From: a virus
Lineage: Duplodnaviria; Caudoviricetes
Virus record (IMG/VR): IMGVR_UViG_3300038379_000080
Coordinates: 1-52,983 of that record
Strand: one strand, 5' to 3'
DNA length: 52,983 bases
Shown here: positions 5,430 through 51,181 of the stretch, one piece after another
Layout: the number at the start of each line of letters is the position of its first letter
Numbering within the stretch: position 1 is the first letter of the stretch
Program-made: the position numbers and the translations under genes
Notes under the pieces: generated by a model
Seen by the model: only the letters and a program-made list of their open reading frames with translations
Told to the model about the DNA's origin: nothing
The model's database searches: none

Positions 5430-5504
5430 AGCCTCCGCTGAGGACTCGAACCTCAGATTCCTACTCTGGTTAGGAGTTTTGAATTACCGTTATGCTACAG
5501 AAGC
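5430..5504 (-). tRNA. atypical or degenerate tRNA-like gene (anticodon loop CU-AAC-CA)
   Basis: Acceptor GCTTCTG/CGGAGGC, T-arm CTGAGG-TTCGAGT-CCTCAG, weak D-stem. Confidence 0.55.
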
Positions 5505-5626
5505 CCCTTGCCCAATTCTCTCTGGCTCCAGAGGCGGGGCAAGGTCGCCTCAATGCCAGCGGAGCGGCCATATCGTACTTGAGCCTGCTGTCGTACCTCG
5601 TGGCTATTTCAGTACGTCCACGAGAG

Positions 5627-5697
5627 AGGCCACGGAGGGAATCGAACCCTCGCCACCTGCTTACAAGGCAGGCGCTCGACCTTCGAGCTACGCGGCC
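5627..5697 (-). tRNA. tRNA-Thr(UGU)
   Basis: Canonical cloverleaf, CCTGC-CT TGT AA-GCAGG, GGTTCGATTCC; CCA not encoded. Confidence 0.9.
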
Positions 5698-6009
5698 ACG
5701 AGCTTCCTTGCTCTGCAATGTCAGGACTTCATCCCGCCCTGCGACCCTCGTTTGCCGGAGAACAGGTCGATGCTCTCGAAATCGTCTTGAGACACCCGGC
5801 ATCTCAAGCCGACCGCACTTTTACCCTCTCGTGTGCGGAACGCGCGCCTGTCTCCCTCACTAGGGAACATCCTGCAAGTGCAGGAGAGAGTGAGGTACTA
5901 GAGCAGCTTGGACATATGGATTTTAGCCACTCCAATTTACACCGGCATCCCATTGAGACGGGGATTCATGCTTGATAACATGAGCCATACCGATGGTTCC
6001 ACTGAATCA
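5698..6009 (-). ncRNA. putative structured RNA between tRNAs
   Basis: No credible ORF; dense hairpins such as CCTCACT/AGTGAGG, TCCTGCA/TGCAGGA, CTTGAGA/TCTCAAG and CCGCAC/GTGCGG. Confidence 0.45.
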
Positions 6010-6085
6010 GGCCGCCGCCGGGGATTTGAACCCCGATCAACTTGGGTTTGCAGCCCAAGCATGCTACCAAATACATCACGGCGAC
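6010..6085 (-). tRNA. atypical tRNA with Cys (GCA) anticodon
   Basis: GTCGCCG/CGGCGGC acceptor, 6-bp anticodon stem CTTGGG-CTGCAAA-CCCAAG, CGGGG-TTCAAAT-CCCCG plus an extra G. Confidence 0.8.
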
Positions 6086-10420: not shown

Positions 10421-10605
10421 GTCTCCTCCAAAAAGAAAAGGACAGGCCGGGAGTGGGTTAGTCTGTGCCAGCCGTCCGAGAGCCTTCAGTCGATTTCCAG
10501 CGGGGAATACCCAATTTACCCCTATCCGAAAGCAGCAAGCCTCACACTCTTGCTACCCCAGATTAACCGCTCACACTTGGGGAAATCATATAGACAAGAC
10601 TCTAG

Positions 10606-10676
10606 CCGGCTCGGTGGGAATCGAACCCACGTCTTCCGCTCCAAAGGCGGACGTTCTACCATTGAACTACAAGCCA
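10606..10676 (-). tRNA. tRNA-Gln(UUG)
   Basis: Cloverleaf, TCCGC-CT TTG GA-GCGGA, GGTTCGATTCC. Confidence 0.9.
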
Positions 10677-13272: not shown

Positions 13273-13304
13273 CAGTGGCACCCCTCGTCTGAGGGGTGCC
13301 ACTG
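13273..13304. terminator. hairpin terminator
   Basis: CAGTGGCACCCCTC...GAGGGGTGCCACTG. Confidence 0.65.
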
Positions 13305-17451: not shown

Positions 17452-17933
17452 GGCTTCTCCTTCACTTCCAGAAGAGAATCTTCGATCTCGATGTAGAAGT
17501 CAGCAGCCTCGCGAAGCTCTTGCGGGATTCCGCACGCGAAGATGATGCACCTGACTCCCTTGTCTCGGATGAACCGCACGAGATCGATTAGATCCGCGTC
17601 AGCCGATCCGAGGACTACCGTGTCAACACGATCAAGTACACGGACGACATCAAGCGTTAAGCCGATATCCCAATCAGCCTTACGGATAACTTGCTTGACG
17701 TTATCCTCAGACATACGAGATCGCTTGTACTTGGTGTCGTATCCCAGCTTCTTGAGGCAGTTGATGAAGGGATTTGCTTCCTCACCCATCTGCACCCCGT
17801 AGGCAAAGGCCCGGTAAAGTTGGCCAAGTTCGCCAACCTTATCTCGGATCTTTGCATAGTCGAGCTTGCGATTCTGGAATCGCTTGCCGACACAATAGTA
17901 CAGGTTGGCGATATCAACGAACAATGCGTTCAT
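17433..17933 (-). CDS. NYN-domain (LabA/DUF88, PIN-like) protein
   Basis: FVDIANL, KADWDIGLTLD, LGSADAD, LREAADFY. Confidence 0.85.
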   Translation of the reverse strand: MNALFVDIANLYYCVGKRFQNRKLDYAKIRDKVGELGQLYRAFAYGVQMGEEANPFINCLKKLGYDTKYKRSRMSEDNVKQVIRKADWDIGLTLDVVRVLDRVDTVVLGSADADLIDLVRFIRDKGVRCIIFACGIPQELREAADFYIEIEDSLLEVKEKPCTPAA

Positions 17934-20089
17934 GGTACAGGAATCTCGCATACGGGTCCAGAGCAATACCTTTCGTCAATGCCATCGCTGTTGCTCAGTT
18001 GTGACCAGTCGATGGAAGAAATCTGATTAAGCCGACGATAGTATTCGGCTTGGCTGATCCCTTCCTCAGGCATTTGACGATACGCTCCCTTCGGGGAGTG
18101 TGGCAATAGAGACACGGATTTTGTCAGCGGAGCAATCGCTGATAGTACGGGTTCGATGTCTTTTTCCTCATGTCGAGGGTCGAACTCGTACACTTTGGCT
18201 TCAAGAAGCACGCCGTCCTGGAACTTGCATTTGACCTTATACCTTTCAGGCCAAGTGTACTCGGGCATCTCGTTGCTGATGATTTGGGCTGCAGCCGTGA
18301 TCCCGAAATAGTGTTCGAGTCTGGCAATGAAATCATCATCAACATGCTCTACGAGCGCCCACATGGGGCGAAAATAAAGTGTGTTGCTAACCGAGTTATC
18401 AGACCACTCGCGTTGCAACACGATCAGGTTCATCGCCTGTTCCCAAACTGTGACCTGATCAGCGGGCTGGGCCGGACCTTGATGAATGGGCCACTCGAAT
18501 ACATCGGTGTACTGGTCGTAATAGTCCTCCTCAAAAGGAACGCCCGCGAAGATGAGCAATTGGTGTACAGGGCTGTTCTTGGCAACCCGCACACGGCGTA
18601 AGGTGTAATTGAACGTGGGGTGTCCGACACCGGAAGTCTTGCCAGCCAGCTTCGGGACTGTTCCGCCTGGCTTGATCGTTGTGTGACGAATCGGTCTCGG
18701 AACGCCAGCTTCGTCGTTCGCCCATTGGGCTGTCCGAACAACCTCACTGTACCCTTCTCGCATGCAGCGAGTAACCTTGTGGACACCCTTGTCGTGCTTC
18801 CAGCCGGTGTAGTCAACAATGCCCACACCAATACGACGGTTACGAGCAACAACCCGATTCGTGCTAGGTTGATGAGTCGGTAGCAACGAAACAGTTGTGC
18901 AGTACATTGTGGCATACCCGCACGCCTCCAGCCATTGATCATGAGAACTGCACATAGTCGGGAACGTTTCCGACAAGTTACAGACCTCTCTGTGTTCAAG
19001 TGGAATTTCCCCACACGGATTGAAGCCTACTGCCTTATCTGGCCGAAGATCCTTCATCTTCTTGCCAATACGACCATAAGGCATATTGACCCTGTTGATG
19101 TAGCCAGGCTCTCCGTTTTTAACAACCCGTCGAGCGATTTCGCCTAGAGAATCGAAATCCTCTGGCGTCTCCAACTCAACGCTGTTGTTCGACATCCAGC
19201 CGTAGGCTTCTCGCTCCGGGAACCTGCTGTAGTCCTTCAAGTCTGGAAAGACCGGGTCGGACATCTTGCCTTTGGTTAACTCTGCGCTGCGCCGGACGTT
19301 GCCAGCAACAACGGCTACACCAGTCAAGTTGCCCAGATTCGTTTTCAAGTACACGCTATCGTATTCAGGGCGTGTGCCAAAAATCTCAAACTGCTCGATA
19401 GTTTGCTCGTGCAGTTTCTTGAGCGGAGCCGGTCCAGAAGAAATCCCACCAAAACCTTTGATTGGCAGATTTGGGCCACGAACCTTATCGTAGATCATTC
19501 GAGGCAGCTTTTGATCTGGCTTGGTGAAAGCATCGATCATTCGCTTCTCGGACTCTGCCCAACCTTCTCTTGTGTCTGGGATGACAAAATCATAAGTCCC
19601 GACCGGCTTGTAGATTTTCATGGCGTCATTTCGGAGCGGACCAAATCCGACTCCAACGCCACACATGAGAGAATCCATAAGCCAAGAGATGTCATCCCCG
19701 ATATCGTCCGTGATATCTGTGTAGGCACAGTTGTAAAGCGCCATGCTACCGCGTTCATAGATGAACTGCGTGCCCATCGCCCACAACCCTCGCCCTGGCG
19801 GGAGCCAACGCATCATGAAAGCTGATTCAATGAAGCCAACGGCATAGGCTTGCCAAAAGTCTTCATCCCACTTAATGTGGTTCTTGACGTACCAATCTTT
19901 CCTGACGCTGAAGGTTCCATTGGTGACACGAATCATCGTGTCAGCCCAATCTTCCTGTTTCGGTTCAGCCCGAGAATATGTCCGGTAGAACAGGAATTCA
20001 CCGAAGCCGTTATAACCAAACGGCGGAATAAGACTTCGGACATAATCCTCAGTCTTATGATTGATTTCGAAACGCTCTGTGACGTACAT
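17930..20089 (-). CDS. nrdJ: class II (B12-dependent, monomeric RTPR-type) ribonucleotide reductase
   Basis: PPGRGLWAMG, LYNCA, GNVRRSAE, NPCGEI, TIKPGGT, C-terminal CSGPVC. Confidence 0.95.
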   Translation of the reverse strand: MYVTERFEINHKTEDYVRSLIPPFGYNGFGEFLFYRTYSRAEPKQEDWADTMIRVTNGTFSVRKDWYVKNHIKWDEDFWQAYAVGFIESAFMMRWLPPGRGLWAMGTQFIYERGSMALYNCAYTDITDDIGDDISWLMDSLMCGVGVGFGPLRNDAMKIYKPVGTYDFVIPDTREGWAESEKRMIDAFTKPDQKLPRMIYDKVRGPNLPIKGFGGISSGPAPLKKLHEQTIEQFEIFGTRPEYDSVYLKTNLGNLTGVAVVAGNVRRSAELTKGKMSDPVFPDLKDYSRFPEREAYGWMSNNSVELETPEDFDSLGEIARRVVKNGEPGYINRVNMPYGRIGKKMKDLRPDKAVGFNPCGEIPLEHREVCNLSETFPTMCSSHDQWLEACGYATMYCTTVSLLPTHQPSTNRVVARNRRIGVGIVDYTGWKHDKGVHKVTRCMREGYSEVVRTAQWANDEAGVPRPIRHTTIKPGGTVPKLAGKTSGVGHPTFNYTLRRVRVAKNSPVHQLLIFAGVPFEEDYYDQYTDVFEWPIHQGPAQPADQVTVWEQAMNLIVLQREWSDNSVSNTLYFRPMWALVEHVDDDFIARLEHYFGITAAAQIISNEMPEYTWPERYKVKCKFQDGVLLEAKVYEFDPRHEEKDIEPVLSAIAPLTKSVSLLPHSPKGAYRQMPEEGISQAEYYRRLNQISSIDWSQLSNSDGIDERYCSGPVCEIPVP

Positions 20090-30377: not shown

Positions 30378-30415
30378 CTTGACACCTCACACTGTTAGGG
30401 TGAAAATCGAAACAG

Positions 30416-30488
30416 TGGAGCCAGAGGGAATCGAACCCACAACCTTCCGGATGCAAACCGGATGCTCTCCCAATTGAGCTATAGCCCC
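30416..30488 (-). tRNA. tRNA-Ala(UGC)
   Basis: GGGGCTA/TGGCTCC-A with G3-U70, TCCGG-TT TGC AT-CCGGA. Confidence 0.92.
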
Positions 30489-36913: not shown

Positions 36914-37392
36914 TGTCCATTGATTATCTCACACGGGCCTACAAGGCTGCTATGAAGTTCAGTACTGATCCGCATACTCAGAACGGGGCAGTTCTTGTTA
37001 CTACACTCGGCACCGTCTTGGAGGATGCAAATCACTTCCCAGAGAACGTACAGGAGTCTCAGGAGCGGTGGACAGCCCCTCTCAAGTACAAGTTCGTCGA
37101 GCATGCTGAGCGAAATGTGATTTTGCAAGCAGCTCGGAAAGGCATCAAGACAGATGGGGCTTGGCTGTTTGTGCCCTGGTTTGCTTGTGCGGACTGTGCG
37201 CGTGCAATCATTCAAGCCGGTATCAGGAACGTAGTAGGGCATGACGCCCCGTTCCATAATCGGCCTGATTGGCAGAACAATATCGATGTAGTCGATCAGA
37301 TGCTCAAGGAAGCCGGAGTTAGTTTCCTTCGCATTGTTCACAAGTTCTCGGATATCGAGATCCTCTTTGACGGAGTAAAGGTTCAGCCATGA
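36913..37392 (+). CDS. dCMP deaminase
   Basis: STDPHTQNGA, HAERN, PWFACADC. Confidence 0.92.
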   Translation: MSIDYLTRAYKAAMKFSTDPHTQNGAVLVTTLGTVLEDANHFPENVQESQERWTAPLKYKFVEHAERNVILQAARKGIKTDGAWLFVPWFACADCARAIIQAGIRNVVGHDAPFHNRPDWQNNIDVVDQMLKEAGVSFLRIVHKFSDIEILFDGVKVQP

Positions 37393-38033
37393 GTAGTGGA
37401 ACCTCACGGATGGGGTTAACCCATCTCAATGGCGACATTCTCTGCGTCATCGACGTAGAAACCTCAGGCCATATTCCCGGCTTCCACGATCTGTTGCAAA
37501 TCTGTATTCTGCCGCTTGATTACAAGCTGGATATGTGGAAGGACTTCGCTCCATTCTACATGGAAATCCAGCCGAAGCGACCAGAGAACTACGGAAAGGC
37601 TACGACGTGGAATGACGAGGAAGTGGCCAAGAAGAATCGCCAGTTGATGGCCCATGCTCAGGTTAACGGCATGGACCCGTATCGGGCGGCGGACTTGTTC
37701 GACGAGTGGTTCGCGAAGCTAGGTCTAGGCTATCGGAAGAAGATAGCCCCGCTTGCACACAACTGGCCTTTTGATCGAGGTTTCGTTATCGACTGGCTGG
37801 GAGAAGAGACATTCATTCAATGTATCGATCCCAGATACCGGGATACAATGGTCGTAGCTACCTTTATGAACGACCAAGCTGATTTCAAGACGGAGCCTTA
37901 CCCCTTCAACAAGGTCAATCTGTCCTGGCTTGCAAAGCAGTACAATATTGATCACAGTCGAGCGCACGATGCTTTGGCTGATTGTTGGGTCACGGCTCAA
38001 GTCTACAAGCGGCTTGTCATGAGCGGCCCGTAA
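37389..38033 (+). CDS. DEDDh 3'-5' exonuclease (DnaQ-like)
   Basis: IDVETSG, AHNWPFD, DT, HDALAD. Confidence 0.9.
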   Translation: MSSGTSRMGLTHLNGDILCVIDVETSGHIPGFHDLLQICILPLDYKLDMWKDFAPFYMEIQPKRPENYGKATTWNDEEVAKKNRQLMAHAQVNGMDPYRAADLFDEWFAKLGLGYRKKIAPLAHNWPFDRGFVIDWLGEETFIQCIDPRYRDTMVVATFMNDQADFKTEPYPFNKVNLSWLAKQYNIDHSRAHDALADCWVTAQVYKRLVMSGP

Positions 38034-38034
38034 C

Positions 38035-38079
38035 AAAGAAACCCGCGTACCGATTTTCGGTACGCGGGTTTCTTTTTTT
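38035..38079. terminator. bidirectional intrinsic terminator
   Basis: AAAGAAACCCGCGTACCGA-TTT-TCGGTACGCGGGTTTCTTTTTTT between convergent genes. Confidence 0.9.
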
Positions 38080-39265
38080 ATAGGTCGATCTCGAAGAACT
38101 CCGCGATCTTCGTTTTTATCCAGTCGAAATGCTCCGCATCTTCCCCTTCTCCAGACTCCGCCGTGACGATTTCACAAACCTCTTCGCCTACCTGCCCGGC
38201 GAACTCATCAACTGAAGCATTCACATCTGGGTTGATCCCATCAATGATGCTGATATGCACCCTGCCAAAGATGCTCTCATCATCATAAATGATAGGATCG
38301 GCGATTTCCATGTTGATGGTTCTGATAATAACCATCTTGTACTTGTGGCATCGCTCAATCCACTCCAGAAACATGTCAGCACTACGGGTAATCAGCCCTT
38401 CCCAAGTGAAGCTCTCTGTAGTAGTCGATGAAGTTTGCCTAAGAACCGGATATCTAGGACCAGTCGGCGGATCAAGCGGATTGATCAACACACCCATAGC
38501 ATGGATCTCGAAGGTAGGCGGGTCGCCCACAGGGATCAACACAGTAGTAACACCCACCCAGCTTTCGTTTTCAGTGAAACCAGTGCCAGTTGCACCGTCA
38601 ACTTCGATGATTGAAAGGCTACTATGGGCAATTAGCAACGCCGTGATAGTGGGAAATACCACGTCGTAGCCCGAAAGGGTTTCTGTGTTACCGGACCCTT
38701 CCATGTGGGAACGATAGAAACCGTAGCTTTCTCGCTCTGACCCTCTGAAGATTTCCAGAATGTCTCCGCCGACAAACTGATCGATTTCAATGACCCCTAC
38801 ATCCTCATCTTCGCCTTGTGGGGGCTGCATTGTTTCGTAATCAGTGATCGGCAGACCCGGATATAGTCCAACACTGGTGGCTTGCGGGTAAGGATTGGCC
38901 ACAACCGTGATCCCATGTTCAATTAGAGTTTCGGCGATTTCGTCGAACATCTCTTTGAACTCGCTGCCATAACCGCGAAGCACAACGGTTTTCGGGACAA
39001 CATGCGGTCTGTGCTTGGACTTGACCCAGACAAATAGATTGTTGTATGTGTCTGGATCAGAGCCATCATCCTGCCAAGCAACAGTCTCAGGCAAATAGGC
39101 AAGAGGGAGCTGCTTGATATTCTTCCCGCCTACTGGGAATCCTGACCAGGTTTTCTCTTCCGGTTCATTATAGACTGTGTGGTCCCCAGCTTCCATAGTT
39201 CCAGACTCTCGCCAGAACTCTGGCATCTGCATGGGACCAGACTTGAGGATTTTAGGCTCCTCCAT
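38078..39265 (-). CDS. acidic hypothetical protein, probably virion-associated
   Basis: Last gene of tail operon; GAGGT RBS. Confidence 0.7.
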   Translation of the reverse strand: MEEPKILKSGPMQMPEFWRESGTMEAGDHTVYNEPEEKTWSGFPVGGKNIKQLPLAYLPETVAWQDDGSDPDTYNNLFVWVKSKHRPHVVPKTVVLRGYGSEFKEMFDEIAETLIEHGITVVANPYPQATSVGLYPGLPITDYETMQPPQGEDEDVGVIEIDQFVGGDILEIFRGSERESYGFYRSHMEGSGNTETLSGYDVVFPTITALLIAHSSLSIIEVDGATGTGFTENESWVGVTTVLIPVGDPPTFEIHAMGVLINPLDPPTGPRYPVLRQTSSTTTESFTWEGLITRSADMFLEWIERCHKYKMVIIRTINMEIADPIIYDDESIFGRVHISIIDGINPDVNASVDEFAGQVGEEVCEIVTAESGEGEDAEHFDWIKTKIAEFFEIDL

Positions 39266-39542
39266 CTCTTACCTCACATTGGTGGCATTGCTTGGGGAAC
39301 ACGTCCATTTCAAATCTGGTACACCACCAGATATGACGTTTTCGTATTCAGCCCGGAGCATTGGTTAGTGGCCGTTCCACTGTTGTCCGATATTTGCAAG
39401 GCTGAAATTCAGGATAGAACCTGTTGCCCTCTTTCTTGAACAGAGGAAGTGCTGAAGGAATCATGCCTGTGGGGTCGAATTCTAGCGACCCGTCATCCAG
39501 CACTCTCGGGAGGACAACGATCGGTACACGATTCGCAGACAC
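39252..39542 (-). CDS. Cys-rich protein with in-frame UGA (candidate selenoprotein, 96 aa)
   Basis: UGA at 39348-39350; readthrough gives IRKRHIWWCTRFEMDVFPKQCHQCEVRDGGA-TAA, matching the paralog Cys pattern. Confidence 0.65.
39310..39336 (-). promoter_or_regulatory. SECIS-like hairpin
   Basis: UCA-U-AUCUGGU-GGUGU-ACCAGAU-U-UGA, beginning 11 nt after the UGA. Confidence 0.55.
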
Positions 39543-39720
39543 TTTGGTTCACCACAATTCCTTTCAGGGCGCATATGTCTCGCCCACAAGAAGATATACC
39601 GTGAAAGAAACAGGGCGGCCATACTCGAATGAACGAGTATGGATCGCCCGGTTCCTGCATGTATCCCGGAGGACAGGGCGGGTAAGGCCCACGCTTCGGG
39701 TACGCGATTCTCAACTTCAC
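39493..39720 (-). CDS. small Cys-rich protein, paralog of 39252..39542
   Basis: PPC...SSCG...IC...V....CESC..R. Confidence 0.7.
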   Translation of the reverse strand: MKLRIAYPKRGPYPPCPPGYMQEPGDPYSFIRVWPPCFFHGISSCGRDICALKGIVVNQSVCESCTDRCPPESAG

Positions 39721-42700
39721 TGCCAGACACCCACGTAGAAGTAGTATTCCGTTACAGGCTCCTCGTTCTCGTCTACGGATTGGATTTCCATAACGACAAC
39801 GCCGGTGCCTTCTTCAATCTCGTCGCCACCCTCATCCTCCTCGTTGATTTGAACAGGGATAGCTCCTGAGACAAAATCAGGCTCAGCATTAAAGCCGCTC
39901 GGCCAAGTCTCCAGATCGTAGCCTTCACTGGAGTTGCCACCCTGAACATAGCCAGGGTAGACCTTAGCCCCACCTGTGGAAATCTGCATATAGTACGTGA
40001 TGTCTGTGGTGCCGTCGTCCAGAGTCTTAAAGACTTCTGTAACCACGACACCAGTGCCGGGATCAATTTGTTGTTCTTTATCGCCAACAAATTGAACATT
40101 GTCAACCACACGAGACGAACCACCGAACCCTTCCTGAAAGATTGAAACCGAGTAGGTAGCATAACCCGCATCCGAGTCAGGCCCTTGCTCGATAACTGTA
40201 CCAGGATAAGAACGCGGTGTAATGGGTGCAGGACGGAAATCATCCCGAGCATCTTGCGCATCGTATTGATACTGCGTTGTGCCAGGCGGCTTGATACCAG
40301 CCCCTTGGACAGCCGTCGCATCCAATCGCTGCAAGATTTCCGGTGCAAGCTGATTAAGGTCAGTTTGCAGCGTATCGTCCACACCCCATGTGTGCGGACG
40401 TGTGGTTGTCTGCACATAGCCGCCGTTACCCGGATCGCCCGAGAACGGATTGGTGTAGTCAGGACTCCCGGCTGGCCCAGGCTCAGGCAACTTGACATTA
40501 TCGTTGAACGATACGTCAGACGTGCCTCGACCTGCACCTTGAACTCGACCTTGCTGGATGTCGTCCTCAGTCGGGAAATAGAATCCGATGGACAAGTCAC
40601 CCATATAGGCGAACATGTACTTCGTCATCTCTCCCGCACGAACAGGAACCCACAGGGTCAAATCAATGGTATAGTCCGCCGAATTCAACTTGGCTTCCTC
40701 TACCACACAGTTGACCGGGCCGTTGGCGATCAACGGATTTGCAAAGTTGACTGTCACAGTATCCAAGGTCTCGATTTTCAACTTCGAGATTGGCACGGTG
40801 ATTTTCAACTTCTTGAACGTGTTAGCTTCTCGGATCATCCAGAAGGTAGCTGCCTTCTGAACGAGCTGTAGCATGTTGAAGCAGAAGAAGCTATACTCCT
40901 TCGGTAACAGCCCATAGTAGGGCACGTTGTACCGAAGGATCACGGCGAAGTTCTTGCTAGTCTTGTAGTCTGCTCGCCAGTGAGCAACATACTTAGTAAC
41001 AAGATCCTCAGTTTCCGTGTATGAAATCTCCATGCTTTGCTCAAGCACATCATCTTCTGTAATAGTATCGACGGGGGGATCTTCCTTCGCCAGATACTTG
41101 ATATAGAAGATGTCGTTCTTTAGCCACACGATGCAACGAGCCTGATACGCGATTTCCGAAATCAGGCTCAAGACGTTTGGACGATCCGTCAATGCAAAGT
41201 GCATAGGGTACGGTTCGAGCAATGTCCTTACAGCATTGAAGCTGGCTGCATCATACGTTCTGCCTGTATAAGTCTGAATGAGCCAGATGAGAATGTCAAC
41301 CGTATTCGGGCCAACAGGACTCGTGCAGCTAATCCAGATTTCGTCGTCCCACCCTTCGCTCTCGCCATTCGGGAAATTCCGAGAGCTAAGAGGCTGAGGC
41401 ATCCAAATCATTGTAACGGGAAGAGTTCCGAAACTGATTTGGAACACAGAGAAGTAGTTGAACGGGACAACGGACAACACGCGACGCTCATTGACTGTGC
41501 GGTACGCAAACACAGCGCTAACTGTGACACGGAGCGTGGCCGACACAATGTAACGAACAGGCAGTGGAGGATTGTTGATCGGGTCCGGATTATCCTCGTC
41601 GTTAGCAATCACGCCCATACGAAGCGGAATACCTGCATCGGCGAAGAAGTAATTCTGACGAGGGATCACCGGCAATCCGGATCGCACAGCGGGATCTTCA
41701 ATGGTCATTCCGCTATACTGCTCGATCTGCGGATGTTGACGAGCAGTGATGTGGAATTGGTCGCCAAGAAAGTAACCTGTATGCAAGGCACCACCAAGAT
41801 TCAGCTTGGTTGATTTCCCTTGTGGAAACAGGTCGCCATTTGTAACCCTGATCGACTTCTTCTCATTTGCCTCTTGCTGATTCTTGACAGTCTTGAGCGT
41901 GTTGTTCTTGTTCCGGATCTTCTGAGCTTCGATGAGCTTCTGGTTGCCTTGCTGGAGATATTGCTTGGCAAGACCGGAGAAGTAACCCTTGCCTCTCTCA
42001 ATACTGTCGAACTCGTCTAGTTCTCCACGCTTACGAGCAGTGAAGCTGGCAAGCAGATAGCCATTGAAATATAACTGAGCAATGGCTGCTGCATTTGCAG
42101 CATTTTTGTCATTGTCGTTGATTCTATGATCAAGAGACGGATCTTTGATTCCCGTTCCATCCTGAGTCACGGAAGCGGCACCGTCACCAGACTTGCCTTG
42201 CTGCTCATTGTCTGAGTAAGCAATATTGTCGATGAGGATGCCCGGCACCTTTTGCACTGTGCCGAAAATCAATGGCCAGGCCGTACCAATCATGCTTTGA
42301 GGCAAGAATGGGAACGAGCCTTCCTCGGGTGAGAAACCGACTTCATGATCCTCTGATGTGGAAATCACGCTGAAGGACAATGTCCGGTCGCCTTCCTTCC
42401 ACACGACAGGGGAAGCAATGTGTCCCACAAACAAGAGGATTTTATCTGTCAGCGGGATGCCAGTGAACCATTGATAGATCCACACCTTTTTCTTGTGGAT
42501 ATCCACGCTGTTGAAGATGATTTTCAATGCACCGTCAGTGTCATCAAGCGTTATATCCACGCTTTGACTTGTACCTGATTTGGAAACATTGATCACGTCT
42601 TCTAGGGCATTAAGTTCAAGGATTCGCCCTTGCATGCCTTCCGTTGCTTTGTCCGAATATGTTGAAATCGGACCACCCTTTTGCCACTGGACTTCAATAA

Positions 42701-42767
42701 TACAAACAGGCTCCGTACCAAGCCGTGTTGCCAGCTTTGCAAGACTGGCCGCCGAGATATTCCTCAT
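39717..42767 (-). CDS. tail tip / hub protein
   Basis: Large gene after TMP; PLIFGTV motif; hub-like layout. Confidence 0.7.
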   Translation of the reverse strand: MRNISAASLAKLATRLGTEPVCIIEVQWQKGGPISTYSDKATEGMQGRILELNALEDVINVSKSGTSQSVDITLDDTDGALKIIFNSVDIHKKKVWIYQWFTGIPLTDKILLFVGHIASPVVWKEGDRTLSFSVISTSEDHEVGFSPEEGSFPFLPQSMIGTAWPLIFGTVQKVPGILIDNIAYSDNEQQGKSGDGAASVTQDGTGIKDPSLDHRINDNDKNAANAAAIAQLYFNGYLLASFTARKRGELDEFDSIERGKGYFSGLAKQYLQQGNQKLIEAQKIRNKNNTLKTVKNQQEANEKKSIRVTNGDLFPQGKSTKLNLGGALHTGYFLGDQFHITARQHPQIEQYSGMTIEDPAVRSGLPVIPRQNYFFADAGIPLRMGVIANDEDNPDPINNPPLPVRYIVSATLRVTVSAVFAYRTVNERRVLSVVPFNYFSVFQISFGTLPVTMIWMPQPLSSRNFPNGESEGWDDEIWISCTSPVGPNTVDILIWLIQTYTGRTYDAASFNAVRTLLEPYPMHFALTDRPNVLSLISEIAYQARCIVWLKNDIFYIKYLAKEDPPVDTITEDDVLEQSMEISYTETEDLVTKYVAHWRADYKTSKNFAVILRYNVPYYGLLPKEYSFFCFNMLQLVQKAATFWMIREANTFKKLKITVPISKLKIETLDTVTVNFANPLIANGPVNCVVEEAKLNSADYTIDLTLWVPVRAGEMTKYMFAYMGDLSIGFYFPTEDDIQQGRVQGAGRGTSDVSFNDNVKLPEPGPAGSPDYTNPFSGDPGNGGYVQTTTRPHTWGVDDTLQTDLNQLAPEILQRLDATAVQGAGIKPPGTTQYQYDAQDARDDFRPAPITPRSYPGTVIEQGPDSDAGYATYSVSIFQEGFGGSSRVVDNVQFVGDKEQQIDPGTGVVVTEVFKTLDDGTTDITYYMQISTGGAKVYPGYVQGGNSSEGYDLETWPSGFNAEPDFVSGAIPVQINEEDEGGDEIEEGTGVVVMEIQSVDENEEPVTEYYFYVGVWQ

Positions 42768-44265: not shown

Positions 44266-47200
44266 TTACTCCAGTGAGACTGTGCCACGACGGAGTGCCC
44301 GTCGCAAACTCTTTGCAAAGGTGCGAACGTTTTGATCCGGTGGCGCATCTCTTTGCATGTTGATGTTGATGTCACCCACGTTTGTGACGTTACCGCCGCC
44401 GTGAGCCTGATTGGGTGTCAAGCCAGCATTGATCATCCGGAGCAACGGACTCCAGTTGTCAGTAGCCTCGCCTGTCATAACCATCTCACGCCGGTTGATA
44501 TAGGCAAGCTGATCGTCGCTCCCTCGACCACCGAACGCATAATGCCGTGGCTTGCCACCGAAGAAGCTGTTAGGTTCACCCCCTCCAGCATTCGGAACCA
44601 CGCCACCGATTTCAGCAATGGCCTTTGCAGCATCTCGTGCCTTCTGAATCAACTGATCAGTCTTCAGAATCATCTGGTCAATTGAGTCTACGACAGGAGC
44701 CTTAGCGGAACCTGCTGCCTCTTCAATGAGCTTAAAGACATCGGGAATCCCACCGAGGGCTTCCTTCATCTTTTCTCCTGAAGCACGCAAAGCATCGAGA
44801 TTTTGTTGTGCCTTTTCCTGCTGAGTCATGCTCTCTGTCAAAGCCTGACGCTCTCGCTCAAGCTCTTTCAGACGTTGCATGCCAGGGGAATCTTGAGGCA
44901 GTTGGTTAACATCCTTGCCTGTAGAAACCCGGATGTACTCCTTGTACTTCTCGATAAAGGCATCCAATGCCCCAACCGACTTATCCAGATTTTGCTTTGT
45001 CTTATCCTTGGCAAAAGCCTCATTAGCTTCAAGAGCAGCGGCTTGCAGCTTCTTGAGTTCTCCAACCATCCTACCGGATTGAGTGGGAATCCCAAGAGCA
45101 TTGAACCTTGGAGCTAGGTTGAAATCTGCCTCACCGATTGTCTTCAGTGTGACAGCCATCTTCTTAGCTTCCGCAGCCATCCTCGAATTGGCTTCAGCCC
45201 AAGAGGATTGAATCTGAGTGATTCGATCCTTGATTGCCCTTCCTTGCATCTGGGCTGTCTCTTGCTCAAGTCTTGCACGGTCTGCAAGAATCCGAGCATT
45301 GACTTCACGCTCAAGAGCCTCACGCTGCTTGTTGATGAAATCAAGAGTACCAAGTCGGTCACGAAGTTCCAATTCAGAAGCAGCCTTTCGAGCGATCGCA
45401 GCCTGCCGATCGAACTCGCTAAGAGCAGCCTTGGGATCTTCCTTGAACTGCTTCGTCGGTTCACCCTTGTCGTCCAAGACCTTGATTTTCTCCAACTCGG
45501 TGATTGCCTGTTGGATGGTCTTGACCCGAGCCTTCTCCCGGATTTCCAGATCCTGGATGACCTTGAGCTGACGTTCCTTTTCAGCTCGCAGCTTTTGTTC
45601 AGCGGCCAGCCGTTCTTGAGCAATAGCTTTCATCTGCCGTTCAAGCTCAGCAGTGCGAACAGTGAATTCAAATCGCTGACGCATCTGTCCAGTAACAGGA
45701 TCAACTTCGATTCCAGCCGGAGTTTGCGTACCTCGACGAATTCTTTCATCGAATTCGGCACGCTGTTTTCGGGTATTGGCTTCAAAGAGATCGCTCGTTA
45801 GTTTCTCCACTTCTCCGTAGAGCTTACGAGCCTCGTCAACGCTTTCCTTGGTGCCTTCGCGGAACTTGCGACGAGCCAGTTCTGCAATCTCGTTGATACG
45901 AGACTTGATCAAGGCAACCTTCTGTTCATCCACCACCATGCCAGTTGCAGAATCAATACGTCCTTCGCTTGCGAACTTCATCTTCGTGTCGAAGACCGTA
46001 TCAGTCAGCTTCCGCTGCATGCCTTCCGTAGCCTTCAAGCTAGATTCGATCATTCCCTTGGCTTCGCTCGCCGCATCTCGCAACGTCTTCAAGCCTTGTG
46101 AAATCGAATCAAAGTAGCTTTTGCCGGCTACTTTGGTCTGCTCAGTAATCTCCTTGAGATTTTGAACAGCCTTAGCCTTGGCATCATCAGCAGTCTGGAC
46201 ATTCTTCGTATGAAATCGAAGAATGATGGACCCACGAGTATCGAACTCCTTTTGCGTATCCTCGATTTCGCTGCGGAAAGTTGAAGATGCTCGATCCTGA
46301 CGGTTCAAGCCTTCAAATCTCATTGCCTCGATCTTCTCAAGATCGGCCTTGATTTTCTCGATACGCCGCTGATCATCCTGATTGAAAATCAGCATACCGA
46401 GAGTGAAGCCAATCCCAAAGCCGCCTAGCGCGACGTTGAGATTTTGCACTGCAAAGGTGAGGGTATTAGTTGCAGCCGCTGCGGCTTGACTCGCAAGTGA
46501 AGCCGAATTCGTTGCAAATGCTGCTCGCAACTGAGCCGTTGCATTAGCCACAGTTGCAGCCGTATTGGTTGCTGATGCTGCACTGAGGGCACTCATGTTC
46601 AAGGTGGCTGTGGCTGCCGTCGTCCCTGTGGTAGCCAAAGTCGTGTTGTAGATGCCGGTTGCCACCGACGCAGCAATTGCGCCAGCTTTCCAACCGACAA
46701 GCCCAATGACAACTGGAGTCAGAAACTTCTCGACCTTTTGCAGCACGTTTGCCATGCCGCCAAGACCTTCAGCGATTTTGACTGCGGCTTGAACAATGCC
46801 GTCACCAAACTCGGTGGAGAAGAAGACCTTCACCTCGTTAATCTGACGACGAACTCGATCACCGAAGCTCTGCATAACGATATCAACAGCTCGGTTGAAA
46901 TCGCCCTGACCCTCGGTAATCTGTTGCAAGTCCTTTTGGAAATCGCCGAAGCTGTTGCCAGTCAGATTTATAGCACCACGGAACGCACGAATCTGATTGA
47001 ATAGTTCGCCGAGCCGGTTAGAACCCTTCTGAGCTTCCACATCCAATTTCTGGAGGACGCCACTGAACCCAAAGGTCTGAATGGCAGCCTGACCAGAAGC
47101 GACACCCCATTCCTTGAACAACTCCTTCATCGCATCCGTTGGACGGATCAACTTCAGAAGCAGATTGGAAATCAGTGTCGAAGCATCCGAGAACTTCATA

Positions 47201-48369
47201 CCCTTGACAGTAAGGGTGGTGATTGCAGCAGCAACTTCTTCGAGCTTCACGCCTGCGTCCGCTGCAATGGTGCCGACTCGACCGAATGTGTCGGCCATTT
47301 CGTTACCACGCACACGACCAAGCTCAATGGTCTTGAAGAAGATTGAAGCAACCTTCTCTGCATCCTGCGTCGGGATGTTGAACGACTTCATTGCCGACGA
47401 CAGAAGATTAACGCTGTCGGCAGCCGAAGTAACAGACGCCTTCGAGAATCGAAGCGCTGTTTCCAAGAACTGGAACGTCTCAGCACCCTTCGTCACCTGG
47501 TTGGACAAGCTCATGTACGCGGCTTCTGCAACGTCAGCCTGGCTATTGCCAAACTGTTGCGAGAGCCGACGAACACCAGAGGACCACTCATCCATGCTGA
47601 CACCAGACCTCTGCGAGATAGTGCCGATTTCGGCAATACGTACAGAGAAGTCTGTAGCAGACTGAATGCCGTCCACAAGCGAACTTTGCAAAGCGCCTGT
47701 GACACGCTTGATGACCTGCGCCTCGAAGAGACGAAGAACACCCTGCCAGCTAATGGTGATTTTCTCTCCCATTCGCTGAGCCTTATCACCAGTCACATCG
47801 AAGCCGGTCATCATTGTCCGAAGTGCCCGAGTAAGCGAAGCCTCCTCAGCAGTCAGGTTCGGAATGATTTGCTTCGGGTTGCTTGTGAGCTGATTATAGA
47901 TTTGCTGGAACCGTTGCAGGCTCACAGCACCAGACTCAATAGCAGCGCGCACCCGTTGTAGGGCTGCCTCCGCTGCATTGATCTGATTCGTGTTTTGACC
48001 CGGCTGAAGTCCCTTGAGCTTCGCCGCAGAGAGCATTGCCTCGACAGTATTGGCATCAGTTCGACGCTGGGCAGCGATTGCCGCTTTCTCCTGTGCCTCA
48101 AGGGCCTTCAAGGATTGAGTGGCAGCATCACTCTTGGCCCCGATCAACTCGAAGCCGGCAGCAGTCTGTCGAAGAGTTGCTTCCAGTTTGGTGCCGTCTG
48201 CCGCAATCGCCCGAAACGTCTGAGAAATCAACTGGCCTTGAGAGTTGAACCTCTCAATGGCATCACCCAGCTTCATAGCAGCAGCCTGTTGGCCGGCCAT
48301 CAACTGGATGAACTGTTCGGCGGCAGACTTGGCATCACTGGCAAGATTGAAGCCAAGTGTGATTGCCAT
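44266..48369 (-). CDS. tail tape measure protein (TP901-like core)
   Basis: 1367 aa, helical and Ala-rich, TMP repeat region, TM-like segments. Confidence 0.9.
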   Translation of the reverse strand: MAITLGFNLASDAKSAAEQFIQLMAGQQAAAMKLGDAIERFNSQGQLISQTFRAIAADGTKLEATLRQTAAGFELIGAKSDAATQSLKALEAQEKAAIAAQRRTDANTVEAMLSAAKLKGLQPGQNTNQINAAEAALQRVRAAIESGAVSLQRFQQIYNQLTSNPKQIIPNLTAEEASLTRALRTMMTGFDVTGDKAQRMGEKITISWQGVLRLFEAQVIKRVTGALQSSLVDGIQSATDFSVRIAEIGTISQRSGVSMDEWSSGVRRLSQQFGNSQADVAEAAYMSLSNQVTKGAETFQFLETALRFSKASVTSAADSVNLLSSAMKSFNIPTQDAEKVASIFFKTIELGRVRGNEMADTFGRVGTIAADAGVKLEEVAAAITTLTVKGMKFSDASTLISNLLLKLIRPTDAMKELFKEWGVASGQAAIQTFGFSGVLQKLDVEAQKGSNRLGELFNQIRAFRGAINLTGNSFGDFQKDLQQITEGQGDFNRAVDIVMQSFGDRVRRQINEVKVFFSTEFGDGIVQAAVKIAEGLGGMANVLQKVEKFLTPVVIGLVGWKAGAIAASVATGIYNTTLATTGTTAATATLNMSALSAASATNTAATVANATAQLRAAFATNSASLASQAAAAATNTLTFAVQNLNVALGGFGIGFTLGMLIFNQDDQRRIEKIKADLEKIEAMRFEGLNRQDRASSTFRSEIEDTQKEFDTRGSIILRFHTKNVQTADDAKAKAVQNLKEITEQTKVAGKSYFDSISQGLKTLRDAASEAKGMIESSLKATEGMQRKLTDTVFDTKMKFASEGRIDSATGMVVDEQKVALIKSRINEIAELARRKFREGTKESVDEARKLYGEVEKLTSDLFEANTRKQRAEFDERIRRGTQTPAGIEVDPVTGQMRQRFEFTVRTAELERQMKAIAQERLAAEQKLRAEKERQLKVIQDLEIREKARVKTIQQAITELEKIKVLDDKGEPTKQFKEDPKAALSEFDRQAAIARKAASELELRDRLGTLDFINKQREALEREVNARILADRARLEQETAQMQGRAIKDRITQIQSSWAEANSRMAAEAKKMAVTLKTIGEADFNLAPRFNALGIPTQSGRMVGELKKLQAAALEANEAFAKDKTKQNLDKSVGALDAFIEKYKEYIRVSTGKDVNQLPQDSPGMQRLKELERERQALTESMTQQEKAQQNLDALRASGEKMKEALGGIPDVFKLIEEAAGSAKAPVVDSIDQMILKTDQLIQKARDAAKAIAEIGGVVPNAGGGEPNSFFGGKPRHYAFGGRGSDDQLAYINRREMVMTGEATDNWSPLLRMINAGLTPNQAHGGGNVTNVGDININMQRDAPPDQNVRTFAKSLRRALRRGTVSLE

Positions 48370-49706: not shown

Positions 49707-50435
49707 TTAGGCGTATGTCACGCGCGTGACATCGACTTCGACGACGTTGGCCTTGCCAGTAATAGAAATCTGACCGGCCTTGAGATCGTGACCAAGCTCC
49801 TCGTAACGGAAATCACGGATAGTGTAGATTTCCATTTGCTCAGAGGAGCAAGGCGGCGTGTACTCGATTACAAGATCCACGCAGTACGGTTCACACGGGT
49901 CAGACCCGGCTGTCACCCAGCCCGCAGCTTCACCGCGCTTCTTGAGGACATCCTCGATGGTGGGAGTGCCACCAGTCGAAGCCTTGAGGAAGACCCATGT
50001 GGCGTCGAGCTTGACCTCGACCGGATCTTCGTCACCCTTCCGAACCGTATCCAGCTTCCCACGATCCTTCACGTAGGTGATCATCCGCTTCTCGGTCCAG
50101 GAAATATTTCCTTCACCGATTCGGATTTGCAGATGGTGGGGCTGGATTGTGATTACATCGTTATCCAGCACAGCAGTAGCCAGACCCGGCGTGAACGTGA
50201 TCTGAGTTGTTGCGCCCAGCGTCTCGGTATGCGCCGTGATTTGATACCGCTGCTGACGGCCAGCGATTGTGAAGTAGTCGCCTGTGACGACTGCTCCAGT
50301 GAATCCATCGACTGCCATGACTGTCGTACCAATAGGGTAGCCAGCCATGAGATTAACTGCACCAGTCGGATCGGCAGGGCCAGTGTAGCCGTCCCGAATG
50401 TAGACGTTGCAGTTCTTGATGTCCAGTTGTGCCAT
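49707..50435 (-). CDS. major tail tube protein, copy 2
   Basis: Directly upstream of G/GT; near-identical to 50453..51181. Confidence 0.75.
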   Translation of the reverse strand: MAQLDIKNCNVYIRDGYTGPADPTGAVNLMAGYPIGTTVMAVDGFTGAVVTGDYFTIAGRQQRYQITAHTETLGATTQITFTPGLATAVLDNDVITIQPHHLQIRIGEGNISWTEKRMITYVKDRGKLDTVRKGDEDPVEVKLDATWVFLKASTGGTPTIEDVLKKRGEAAGWVTAGSDPCEPYCVDLVIEYTPPCSSEQMEIYTIRDFRYEELGHDLKAGQISITGKANVVEVDVTRVTYA

Positions 50436-50452: not shown

Positions 50453-51181
50453 TTACGGGTCGAGCCGAGCAACGTCAACTTCGATCACGTTAGCTTTACC
50501 CGTGACAGAGAGCTGACCAGCCTTGAGATCGTGACCCAATTCCTCGTAACGGAAATCTCGAATCGTGTAGATTTCGAGCTTTTCCGATGTACACGGAGGC
50601 GTGTACTCAATCACGAGATCGACGCAATACGGCTCGCACGGATCACTTCCAGAAGTGGTCCAAGATGCCGCCTCACCTCGATTCTTGAGGACATCCTCAA
50701 TGGTCGGGGTTTGCCCGGTCGAAGCCTTGAGGAACACCCACGTCGCATCGAGCTTAACCTCGACCGGATCTTCGTCGCCCTTGCGAACCGTGTCGAGCTT
50801 GCCACGGTCCTTGACGTAGGTAATCATCCGCTTCTCGGTCCAGGACACATTGCCCTCACCGATTCGGATTTGAAGTTGACGCGGAGCAATGTCAACGTCA
50901 TCGTTGTCCAGAGCCGCCGTAACCAGACCCGGAGTAATGGTAATCTGGGTTGTGTTACCCAGAGTCTCCGAGTGCGAGGCAATTTGGTAGCGTGTGGCTC
51001 GGCCACCGATGGTAACGTAATCACCAGTCGTGACCGCACCAGTCGCCCCGTCAACAGCAAGAACAGTTGTGCCAATGGCATAACCTGCCCCGTTGTTGAT
51101 CTTCAGATTTGCAAGCCCTGCGATGCCGGAGTAACCGTCACGCAGATAGACATTGCAGTTCTTGATGTCAAGTTGAGCCAT
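50453..51181 (-). CDS. major tail tube protein, copy 1
   Basis: 242-aa paralog; GGAGG RBS. Confidence 0.75.
   Translation of the reverse strand: MAQLDIKNCNVYLRDGYSGIAGLANLKINNGAGYAIGTTVLAVDGATGAVTTGDYVTIGGRATRYQIASHSETLGNTTQITITPGLVTAALDNDDVDIAPRQLQIRIGEGNVSWTEKRMITYVKDRGKLDTVRKGDEDPVEVKLDATWVFLKASTGQTPTIEDVLKNRGEAASWTTSGSDPCEPYCVDLVIEYTPPCTSEKLEIYTIRDFRYEELGHDLKAGQLSVTGKANVIEVDVARLDP

What the first reader, a model, noticed from the sequence alone, without database searches (positions are those of the whole stretch)
39252..39720. Candidate phage selenoprotein in the tail module: in-frame UGA at a Cys position with a SECIS-like hairpin
Seen: ORF 39348..39542 appears to stop at UGA, but the frame continues 31 codons (IRKRHIWWCTRFEMDVFPKQCHQCEVRDGGA) to a TAA overlapping the next gene's start, which fills the intergenic gap exactly. 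The adjacent paralog 39493..39720 has P-C...C-G...C...V....CxxC..R. The readthrough product has P-C...[UGA]...C...V....CxxC..R, so the UGA falls at the second Cys of this pattern (by-eye alignment with gaps). Exactly 11 nt after the UGA a hairpin begins (UCA-U-AUCUGGU/GGUGU/ACCAGAU-U-UGA), with G first in the loop and the loop 22 nt from the UGA. Known: this fits the bacterial SECIS model (E. coli fdhF 11-nt spacing, G in a small apical loop). Inference: the phage uses host SelA/B/C/D to put Sec in a metal-binding tail-tip protein, with a Cys paralog alongside. A virion selenoprotein would be unusual.
Basis: partly seen in the sequence, partly recalled or inferred. Interest (0 to 1): 0.9.

Follow-up and report, generated by a model that had tools for sequence, protein, structure and literature searches.

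The report
Likely selenoprotein gene in a phage
An uncultured freshwater phage has a small cysteine-rich gene beside its tail genes in which a UGA "stop" sits exactly where relatives have a cysteine, and it is most likely read as selenocysteine, which would be a rare case of a bacterial virus encoding a selenoprotein.

Summary
On the minus strand, a 64-codon ORF (39542..39351) ends at TGA (39350..39348). The frame stays open for 31 more codons to a TAA (39254..39252) that overlaps the start of the next gene.

Evidence that the UGA is decoded:
- A profile built only from 22 Cys-containing homologues matches the post-UGA peptide on its own (30.1 bits, E 3.9e-8).
- The UGA falls on a column that is Cys in 21 of 22 full-length relatives.
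- Five other database proteins, 42-60% identical to each other apart from one 95% pair, end at exactly this column after "PG". A Cys-form protein is sister to one of them. I could not fetch their DNA.
- The 64 nt around and after the UGA fold unusually well (z -3.3 to -3.6), also against synonymous-codon resampling (19 of 2000). The same segment in seven Cys-codon homologues does not.
- TGA is otherwise the commonest stop in the window, so the code is not reassigned.
- An independent re-assembly at depth about 12 is identical.

Best reading (about 0.75): a genuine SelB/SECIS-type selenocysteine codon in a new small-protein family placed next to the large tail protein.

Not shown: the host and its sel genes, selenium incorporation, presence in the virion, and metal binding.

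The parts
39351..39542 (-). ORF B, part before the UGA (64 codons, GTG start at 39542; overlaps the end of ORF A by 50 nt)
   Evidence: It matches the Cys-only family profile at 43.0 bits, E 3.8e-12. The N-terminus aligns from residue 1 with database homologue P0006, which supports the GTG start.
39348..39350 (-). In-frame TGA, the candidate selenocysteine codon (residue 65)
   Evidence: It aligns with TGT Cys in L001 and with Cys in 21 of 22 full-length family representatives. Five other database proteins end immediately before this column.
39255..39347 (-). Post-UGA coding extension, 31 codons, carrying three of the five family-conserved Cys (C74, C86, C89) and the conserved Trp
   Evidence: On its own it scores 30.1 bits, E 3.9e-8, against profile positions 57-83. 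It is identical to the C-terminus of Cys-form P0030 at 14 of 31 residues (read). AlphaFold2 block-mean pLDDT over residues 61-90 is 92-96, with strand 68-74 and helix 83-87.
39252..39254 (-). TAA that ends the read-through product, inside the first codons of the next gene
   Evidence: L001 has the same kind of overlap, 20 nt.
39294..39353 (-). SECIS-like RNA element. The lower stem includes G and A of the UGA. The upper hairpin is 39336..39310 and the apical loop about 39325..39321, with G first.
   Evidence: MFE -21.7, z -3.34. (z -3.56, while seven Cys-codon homologues give z -1.45 to +2.0). (synonymous-codon null, 19 of 2000 as stable). It is not terminator-like. No Rfam SECIS family matches.
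39493..39720 (-). ORF A, a 75-aa Cys-form paralogue of ORF B (GTG start overlaps the stop of the 1016-aa gene)
   Evidence: Family profile E 4.8e-6. L001 has a homologue. TGT at the column of the UGA, with no local structure there (z -0.35).
39717..42767 (-). 1016-aa large tail-module protein directly upstream (no Pfam, PHROG or PDB match)
   Evidence: Relatives are in L001, L004-L010, L012 and L013. A family member follows it in L001, L004, L008, L012 and L013.
38078..39265 (-). 395-aa gene whose ATG overlaps the end of the read-through frame; last gene of the operon
   Evidence: No family match. A GAGG Shine-Dalgarno-like motif lies 6-7 nt before the ATG (read).
44266..48369 (-). Tape measure protein, which fixes this as a siphovirus-type tail module
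   Evidence: PF10145 at E 7.2e-28 and 15 PHROG tape-measure families.
38035..38075 (.). Strong bidirectional terminator-like hairpin (19 pairs) closing the tail operon

Best explanation
ORF B (39542..39252, minus strand) is one 96-codon gene of a previously undescribed family of small five-cysteine phage proteins. Its codon 65, UGA, is decoded as selenocysteine.

Inferred mechanism: during infection, the host's SelB carrying Sec-tRNA(Sec) binds the stem-loop that starts 11 nt after the UGA, with the apical loop 22-23 nt downstream. It delivers Sec to the ribosome in competition with release factor 2. The product is a full-length protein in which Sec replaces the family's near-invariant second Cys. 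That residue, together with C74, C86 and C89 (and C49), probably forms a metal or redox centre.

Shown: the UGA, the conserved in-frame extension, the Cys/UGA alternation, the truncation of other family members at the same column, and the local RNA structure.

Inferred: that the inserted residue is Sec, that the host supplies SelA, SelB, SelC and SelD, and the role of the Cys/Sec cluster.
For: 1. Homologue L001 has an uninterrupted 97-aa gene. An ungapped alignment puts its TGT Cys on the window's TGA, and W, C, DVFP and CxxC are conserved after it.
2. A profile built from 22 Cys-form homologues, window excluded, hits the pre-UGA peptide (E 3.8e-12) and, separately, the 31-aa post-UGA peptide (E 3.9e-8, profile positions 57-83) among 1494 window peptides.
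3. The column is Cys in 21 of 22 full-length representatives.
4. In searches of 1.84 and 5.8 billion proteins, P0006, P0009, P0012, P0029 and P0031 (56-67 aa) all end right before this column after 'PG'. They are 42-60% identical to one another and to the window, except the P0012/P0029 pair at 95%. In the tree they group with the window. The full-length Cys-form P0030 is sister to truncated P0009, with support 100/98.
5. The post-UGA part is about as conserved against P0030 (14 of 31 residues) as the pre-UGA part (54%).
6. RNA structure: z -3.34 and -3.56. 19 of 2000 synonymous recodings are as stable. Seven Cys-codon homologous segments are unstructured (and for L001).
7. TGA is the commonest ordinary stop, 43 of 76 rough ORFs with coding density 0.91. 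No other coding-frame TGA faces a residue in relatives.
8. A Logan re-assembly of run X1, depth 12.4, is identical over 38800..40200.
9. AlphaFold2 predicts the read-through protein as one compact domain, pLDDT 88.7, with the post-UGA part among the best-predicted regions.
10. The case meets the published Sec/Cys-homology criteria as read in passages of PMC1976440.
Against: - No selenium or protein data exist.
- The host is unknown. The window (57% of the genome by CheckV) has no selA, selB, selD or tRNA-Sec.
- I never saw the DNA of the five other truncated homologues. That their stop is TGA, that their frame continues, and that a hairpin covaries are all assumed (searches found none of them).
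- No Rfam SECIS family matches, even at E up to 10.
- Against the window's own background the hairpin is only in the top 2-6%.
- The window sequence and run X1 probably come from the same sample, so the re-assembly is not independent.
- Where L001 has a CxxC knuckle, the window has AxxU, so a classical four-Cys site is not obviously preserved.
Confidence: 0.75

Rival explanations
1. Programmed, Sec-independent read-through. The UGA is leaky, perhaps helped by the downstream hairpin, and a near-cognate tRNA (Cys, Trp or Arg) occasionally reads it. This would give a fixed low ratio of 96-aa to 64-aa product, as with the UGA read-through coat extension of RNA phage Q-beta (recalled, no call).
For: The extension is conserved and in frame. 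The stop is retained across diverged relatives. The phage encodes its own tRNA-Cys(GCA). No SECIS family matched and no host sel genes are known.
Against: The stop sits precisely on a near-invariant Cys (21 of 22). It alternates with Cys in a sister sequence (P0009/P0030). That pattern is the signature of Sec rather than of generic read-through, where the inserted residue is unimportant (passages of PMC8310308). The phage tRNA-Cys has a normal GCA anticodon. The hairpin spacing and the G-first loop fit the bacterial SECIS model as I recall it.
Confidence: 0.1
2. True termination. In this subgroup the functional product is the 64-aa N-terminal part, and the downstream frame is a relic or has another (RNA) role such as regulating the 395-aa gene.
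For: Gene callers produced 56-67-aa proteins in six sequences. The hairpin could act in translational coupling with the overlapping downstream start.
Against: The truncated lineages are only 42-60% identical, so the stop is old. An untranslated relic would have decayed, yet the window's 31 post-UGA codons are open, without indels, and match the Cys-only profile at E 3.9e-8. They are as conserved as the N-terminal part against P0030. The predicted fold needs them, including three of the five conserved Cys, strand 68-74 and the only helix.
Confidence: 0.07
3. A private nonsense mutation, or a sequencing or assembly error, TGY to TGA in this one contig.
For: It is a single-base change from Cys. 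It is a single metagenomic record. Run X1 may be the same data.
Against: A re-assembly at depth 12.4 is identical, with no variant listed. Five other distinct sequences stop at the same column. The hairpin is specific to the UGA form. Codon choice favours the hairpin.
Confidence: 0.03
4. General stop-codon reassignment or a phage suppressor tRNA. TGA is read as a sense codon in late genes of this phage or in its host.
For: Only 57% of the genome is in hand, so a suppressor tRNA could lie outside it. The phage carries five tRNAs.
Against: TGA ends 43 of 76 rough ORFs, including the 1016-aa gene and ORF A, with tight GTGA-type overlaps. The tape measure (1367 aa), the 1016-aa and the 395-aa genes have no in-frame TGA. 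No suppressor or Sec tRNA was found. Only this TGA faces a residue in a coding frame of relatives.
Confidence: 0.03

Closest known systems
Bacterial SelB/SECIS-dependent selenocysteine insertion (the model case is E. coli fdhF; the details given here are recalled, not from a call)
   Same: An in-frame UGA inside the coding region is followed directly by a stem-loop within the ORF. There is an 11-nt spacer to the hairpin and G at the start of a small apical loop. Homologues have Cys at the same column. [quoted passage not shown]
   Different: The gene is viral, and the machinery must come from an unidentified host. The protein is not an oxidoreductase of any known family. No Rfam SECIS model matches. 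The loop lies 22-23 nt from the UGA, against about 18 in fdhF (recalled).
Selenoprotein families found in metagenomes by Sec/Cys homology (Zhang and Gladyshev 2007, PMC1976440; passages read)
   Same: The same kind of evidence applies: a TGA/Cys pair with at least two Cys homologues, conserved flanks and a stable downstream stem-loop. Many such families also have no known function.
   Different: Those families were assigned to bacteria. This one is encoded in phage tail modules. [quoted passage not shown]
Poxvirus selenoproteins (glutathione peroxidases of molluscum contagiosum and fowlpox viruses; passages of PMC8310308)
   Same: A virus-encoded selenoprotein that depends on the host's Sec machinery. 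In fowlpox the SECIS lies in the coding region.
   Different: Those are eukaryotic viruses with captured cellular GPx genes and eukaryotic SECIS elements. Here it is a bacteriophage, a bacterial-type element and a phage-specific protein family without a cellular homologue.
Phage lambda gpL-type tail-tip proteins with a four-Cys [4Fe-4S] cluster (passages of PMC10721106)
   Same: A conserved Cys cluster in a small protein or domain of a siphovirus tail module. In this window the three small proteins after the tape measure have 0, 1 and 0 Cys, so ORF A and ORF B are the Cys-rich components of this module.
   Different: There is no sequence or fold similarity. The Cys spacing differs. The gene lies after, not before, the large tail protein. 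No metal has been shown.
Stop-codon-recoded phages and programmed UGA read-through (Q-beta A1 protein; recalled, no call)
   Same: A stop codon in a late or structural gene is decoded.
   Different: Here there is a single site, on a conserved Cys, and TGA is otherwise the main stop.

Membership tests
Bacterial-type selenoprotein gene (Sec-UGA plus SECIS) | In-frame UGA aligned with Cys in at least two homologues | tested here: met
   Cys in 21 of 22 full-length representatives, and in L001 and P0030. The codon is TGT or TGC in the 7 homologous genes I could read.
Bacterial-type selenoprotein gene (Sec-UGA plus SECIS) | Protein-level conservation continues in frame after the UGA | tested here: met
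   The post-UGA 31 aa alone score 30.1 bits, E 3.9e-8, against a profile built without the window.
Bacterial-type selenoprotein gene (Sec-UGA plus SECIS) | [quoted passage not shown] | tested here: inconclusive
   Five further distinct proteins end exactly before the column. Their DNA could not be fetched, so the stop codon and the downstream frame are unseen.
Bacterial-type selenoprotein gene (Sec-UGA plus SECIS) | Stable stem-loop immediately downstream of the UGA with G in the apical loop | tested here: met
   Background rate of this geometry is 2.25% of TGAs. The numeric geometry limits I used are recalled from memory.
Bacterial-type selenoprotein gene (Sec-UGA plus SECIS) | Covariation or conservation of the hairpin among Sec-form homologues | not testable with these tools
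   No DNA of other Sec-form members was available. The only contrast possible was the absence of structure in 7 Cys-form genes.
Bacterial-type selenoprotein gene (Sec-UGA plus SECIS) | Match to a curated SECIS RNA family | tested here: inconclusive
   No Rfam hit at E up to 10 in 39150..39800. Bacterial SECIS elements are poorly captured by common models (passages of PMC12013277).
Bacterial-type selenoprotein gene (Sec-UGA plus SECIS) | selA, selB, selC and selD available in the translating cell | not testable with these tools
   The host is unknown. The window itself has none, and it is only 57% of the genome.
Bacterial-type selenoprotein gene (Sec-UGA plus SECIS) | Selenium in the protein (75Se labelling or mass spectrometry) | not testable with these tools
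   Experimental.
TGA-reassigned or suppressor-tRNA-recoded phage | Many in-frame TGAs in (late) genes, few genes ending in TGA, a suppressor tRNA | tested here: not met
   43 of 76 rough ORFs end in TGA, with coding density 0.91 under table 11. The long tail genes are open. There is no tRNA with anticodon UCA. Only one coding-frame TGA faces a residue in relatives.
Lambda gpL-like Fe-S tail-tip protein | Homology to gpL and a four-Cys [4Fe-4S] domain | tested here: inconclusive
   No PHROG, Pfam, PDB-sequence or fold match for any of the 26 family members or for the model. Five conserved Cys positions exist, but cofactor binding was not tested.

The most novel reading that the evidence does not exclude
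This is the founding member of a phage-specific selenoprotein family whose Sec is a ligand or redox partner in a metal or Fe-S centre of a tail-associated protein. Tail assembly or infectivity, and perhaps translation of the overlapping downstream 395-aa gene, would then depend on the host's Sec machinery and on selenium supply. Selenium and selB status would become a host-range and ecological determinant for a group of freshwater siphoviruses.
Probability: 0.2. Interest if true: 0.9.

Novelty: new variant of a known kind. Interest (0 to 1): 0.8.

Why it matters
In the review passages I read, the only virus-encoded selenoproteins named are two poxvirus glutathione peroxidases (PMC8310308). Six full-text searches turned up no natural bacteriophage selenoprotein. 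Passages of a 2025 prediction paper and a 2026 bacterial selenoprotein database do not mention phages at all.

If the reading holds, four things follow:
- It would add a new selenoprotein family.
- It would show that phages can exploit host UGA-Sec recoding in a structural-module gene.
- Such phages could replicate properly only in Sec-competent hosts.
- Phage annotation pipelines would be truncating these genes systematically, as the six 56-67-aa database entries suggest.

It is directly testable with a read-through reporter and 75Se labelling.

Tried and rejected
- **Function by family.** PHROGs and Pfam gave nothing for ORF A, ORF B, the 1016-aa, 395-aa, 176-aa and 119-aa proteins, nor for any of the 26 family members.
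- **Function by fold or PDB sequence.** Foldseek against PDB and BFVD gave no match at E <= 1e-3. VIA-align wide gave a best Z of 2.8. PDB sequence search gave nothing for A4 and only an E 0.072 chance hit for A3.
- **Isolated phages.** There was no blastn or tblastn match for the region, P0001 or the 1016-aa protein.
- **DNA of other Sec-form members.**
  - Viral-contig scans with A5, P0006 and the 395-aa protein found none.
  - The degenerate pattern for 'RPLTxAPG-TGA' gave 4 chance hits.
The best, L037, is unrelated.
  - Genome contigs gave nothing with A3. With A5 it gave only L011, a dihydrofolate reductase and a false positive.
- **Expression.** No RNA holder was listed.
- **Other checks that came back negative.** Rfam gave no SECIS family. 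The hairpin is not terminator-like. tRNA-Cys is not a suppressor, with a normal GCA anticodon.
- **Other candidate Sec codons in the window.** All other TGA-spanning alignments were off-frame or antisense artefacts. Relatives cover only part of the window.
- **Not run or not seen.** Complex prediction was not run because no binding claim is made. Supplementary files of the papers were not seen.
Full report
**What the window is.** The window is a linear IMG/VR virus record of 52,983 bp, estimated 57% complete. No isolated phage is similar. It carries family-A DNA polymerase, primase, helicase and class II ribonucleotide reductase genes, plus a siphovirus-type tail module anchored by a 1367-aa tape measure protein.

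The genes at the finding lie on the minus strand. In order they are: tape measure, 184 aa, 176 aa, 119 aa, 1016 aa, ORF A (75 aa), ORF B, 395 aa, then a strong bidirectional terminator at 38035..38075.

**The observation.**
- ORF B starts at GTG 39542 and reaches TGA at 39350..39348.
- The frame stays open for 31 codons to TAA 39254..39252, inside the first codons of the 395-aa gene (ATG at 39265).
- Eleven nucleotides after the UGA a hairpin begins (39336..39310) with a G-first apical loop.
- RNAfold joins it to a lower stem that includes the G and A of the UGA. The element spans 39353..39294, with MFE -21.7 kcal/mol, z -3.34, and 1 of 200 shuffles as stable.

**Is the post-UGA sequence coding?** Yes. 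The nearest relative, L001 (45% identity in the large tail protein), has the same two small genes, and its ORF B homologue is an uninterrupted 97-aa ORF. The ungapped alignment places its TGT Cys, the second Cys of a CxxC knuckle, exactly on the window's TGA. W, C, DVFP and CxxC are conserved after it.

A search of 1.84 billion cluster representatives with the two-sequence profile found 27 proteins at E <= 1e-3. Two of them (P0007 and P0013, 354 and 1370 aa, repetitive) were dropped as unrelated.

From the 22 full-length Cys-form members alone I built a profile and scored all 1494 stop-to-stop peptides of the window:
- the pre-UGA peptide scores 43.0 bits (E 3.8e-12, profile positions 3-51);
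- the 31-aa post-UGA peptide on its own scores 30.1 bits (E 3.9e-8, positions 57-83);
- ORF A scores 23.4 bits (E 4.8e-6);
- the next best peptide has E 0.13.

So ORF A is a true Cys-form paralogue, and the UGA falls on the profile's Cys, which is Cys in 21 of 22 full-length members (P0022 has the Cys two residues earlier).

**Is the stop private to this contig?** No. Three of the representatives (P0006, 64 aa; P0009, 58 aa; P0012, 56 aa) end immediately before that column, all in 'APG' like the window. A second search added three more:
- P0029, a 95%-identical variant of P0012;
- P0031, 67 aa, ending in 'MPG';
- P0030, a full-length 101-aa Cys form.

The truncated proteins sit on contigs of 1.3 to 107 kb, so contig ends are not the cause.

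Apart from the 95% pair, the truncated sequences are 42-60% identical to each other and to the window over the shared part. In a maximum-likelihood tree they group together with P0030 (support 84/57, which is weak). P0030 is firmly sister to truncated P0009 (100/98). The label therefore needs two changes on the tree, for example one Cys-to-stop change and one reversion. All 29 rows were kept.

The window's post-UGA peptide is identical to P0030's C-terminus at 14 of 31 positions (read). The N-terminal part is 54% identical, so both halves are under similar constraint.

An old stop, kept at a near-invariant Cys, alternating with Cys in a sister lineage, and followed by sequence that still evolves as protein, is what a selenocysteine codon looks like. 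It matches the criteria used in the field (passages of PMC1976440).

The main gap is that I could not obtain the DNA of those five proteins.

**The hairpin.**
- Against its own composition the 64-nt segment is unusual: z -3.34 and z -3.56 with 3 of 300 shuffles as stable.
- Against 2000 synonymous recodings drawn from the window's codon usage it is still unusual: mean -13.97, sd 2.93, z -2.64, with 19 of 2000 as stable. Codon choice therefore favours the structure beyond what the peptide dictates.
- The equivalent segment at the Cys codon of seven homologous genes gives z from -1.45 to +2.0 (for L001). These are window ORF A, L001 A and B, L012, L013, L004 and L008.
- Against the window's own background the signal is more modest. 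The segment MFE ranks 130th of 2175 TGA-anchored segments. A SECIS-like geometry is met by 49 of 2175 TGAs. That geometry is a loop starting 16-37 nt after the UGA, 3-14 nt long, G among its first two bases and at least 8 contiguous pairs. These limits are recalled from the bSECISearch description, not read in a call.
- No Rfam SECIS family matches.
- The hairpin is not terminator-like.

The hairpin is supportive. The comparative protein evidence carries most of the weight.

**Alternatives.**
- *Genome-wide TGA reassignment or a suppressor tRNA.* Excluded for the part in hand. TGA ends 43 of 76 ORFs of a rough greedy gene set, which includes some spurious antisense ORFs, with coding density 0.91. 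The long tail genes contain no TGA. The five tRNAs are Val, Thr, Cys(GCA), Gln and Ala.
- *Assembly error.* Unlikely. A Logan contig of run X1 (freshwater metagenome, probably the source sample and so not independent) is identical over 38800..40200 at word depth 12.4.
- *True termination with a relic downstream.* This conflicts with the age of the stop and the preserved extension. It also conflicts with the AlphaFold2 model (pLDDT 88.7, pTM 0.72), in which residues 61-90 have block means of 92-96 and carry a strand, the only helix and three of the five conserved Cys.
- *Sec-independent read-through.* Cannot be excluded without experiment. It does not explain why the stop sits on the Cys column.

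**What the protein does.** Unknown.
- The family has no Pfam, PHROG, PDB or fold match.
- It has five conserved Cys positions: C49, U/C65, C74, C86 and C89.
- A family member lies directly after the large tail protein in L001 (two copies), L012, L013, L004 and L008. It is absent in L006 and L007. L005, L009 and L010 end too early to tell.
- The three small proteins after the tape measure have 0, 1 and 0 Cys.
- By analogy with the four-Cys [4Fe-4S] domain of lambda gpL in the tail tip (passages of PMC10721106), a metal or Fe-S centre in a tail-associated protein is a reasonable guess. It is an analogy only.
- Virion location is not shown.

**Host.** Unknown. The window has no selA, selB, selD or tRNA-Sec, so the machinery would have to be the host's.

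**Novelty.** Six full-text searches found no natural phage selenoprotein. The passages read name only poxvirus examples among viruses. Two recent bacterial selenoprotein resources do not mention phages. Subscription-only literature and supplements were not searchable.

The mechanism would be the known bacterial one. The carrier (a phage), the protein family and the structural-module context would be new.

**Verdict.** Selenocysteine is the best explanation (about 0.75). The tail-tip, virion and metal claims remain open. Interest is high.

Noticed in passing
window 5430..6084 (-), 10605..10676 (-), 30415..30488 (-): The phage carries five tRNA genes: Val(AAC), Thr(UGU), Cys(GCA), Gln(UUG) and Ala(UGC). 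The tRNA-Cys scores low against the Rfam tRNA model (39.9 bits) but has a normal GCA anticodon loop. tRNA-Val is below the Rfam gathering score (21.8 bits).
   Followed up: partly
window 38035..38075: A 19-pair terminator-like hairpin with T and A runs on both sides lies between the convergent 395-aa tail gene and the exonuclease gene (37389..38033, +).
   Followed up: no
window 13273..13304: A perfect 14-nt inverted repeat with a 4-nt loop. It is the most stable local fold among TGA-anchored segments in the window (about -39 kcal/mol). Its role is unknown.
   Followed up: partly
window 49707..50435 (-) and 50453..51181 (-): Two tandem 242-aa ORFs. Both give weak PHROG hits to the same stretch of a major-head-protein family, and one also hits a distal tail protein family. 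They may be duplicated Ig-like or tail-tube genes.
   Followed up: no
L004 9010..9498 and L008 5145..5543: In these distant relatives the small Cys-rich gene is longer (162 and 132 aa). It carries an extra N-terminal partial copy of the C-terminal Cys motif, so domain duplication recurs in this family. The window and L001 instead have two separate genes.
   Followed up: partly
window 39493..39542 and L001 8883..8926: ORF A and ORF B overlap by 50 nt in the window and by 44 nt in L001, in different frames. The long overlap is conserved.
   Followed up: no
window 17930..20089 (-): A class II (B12-dependent) ribonucleotide reductase gene is present in the phage.
   Followed up: no
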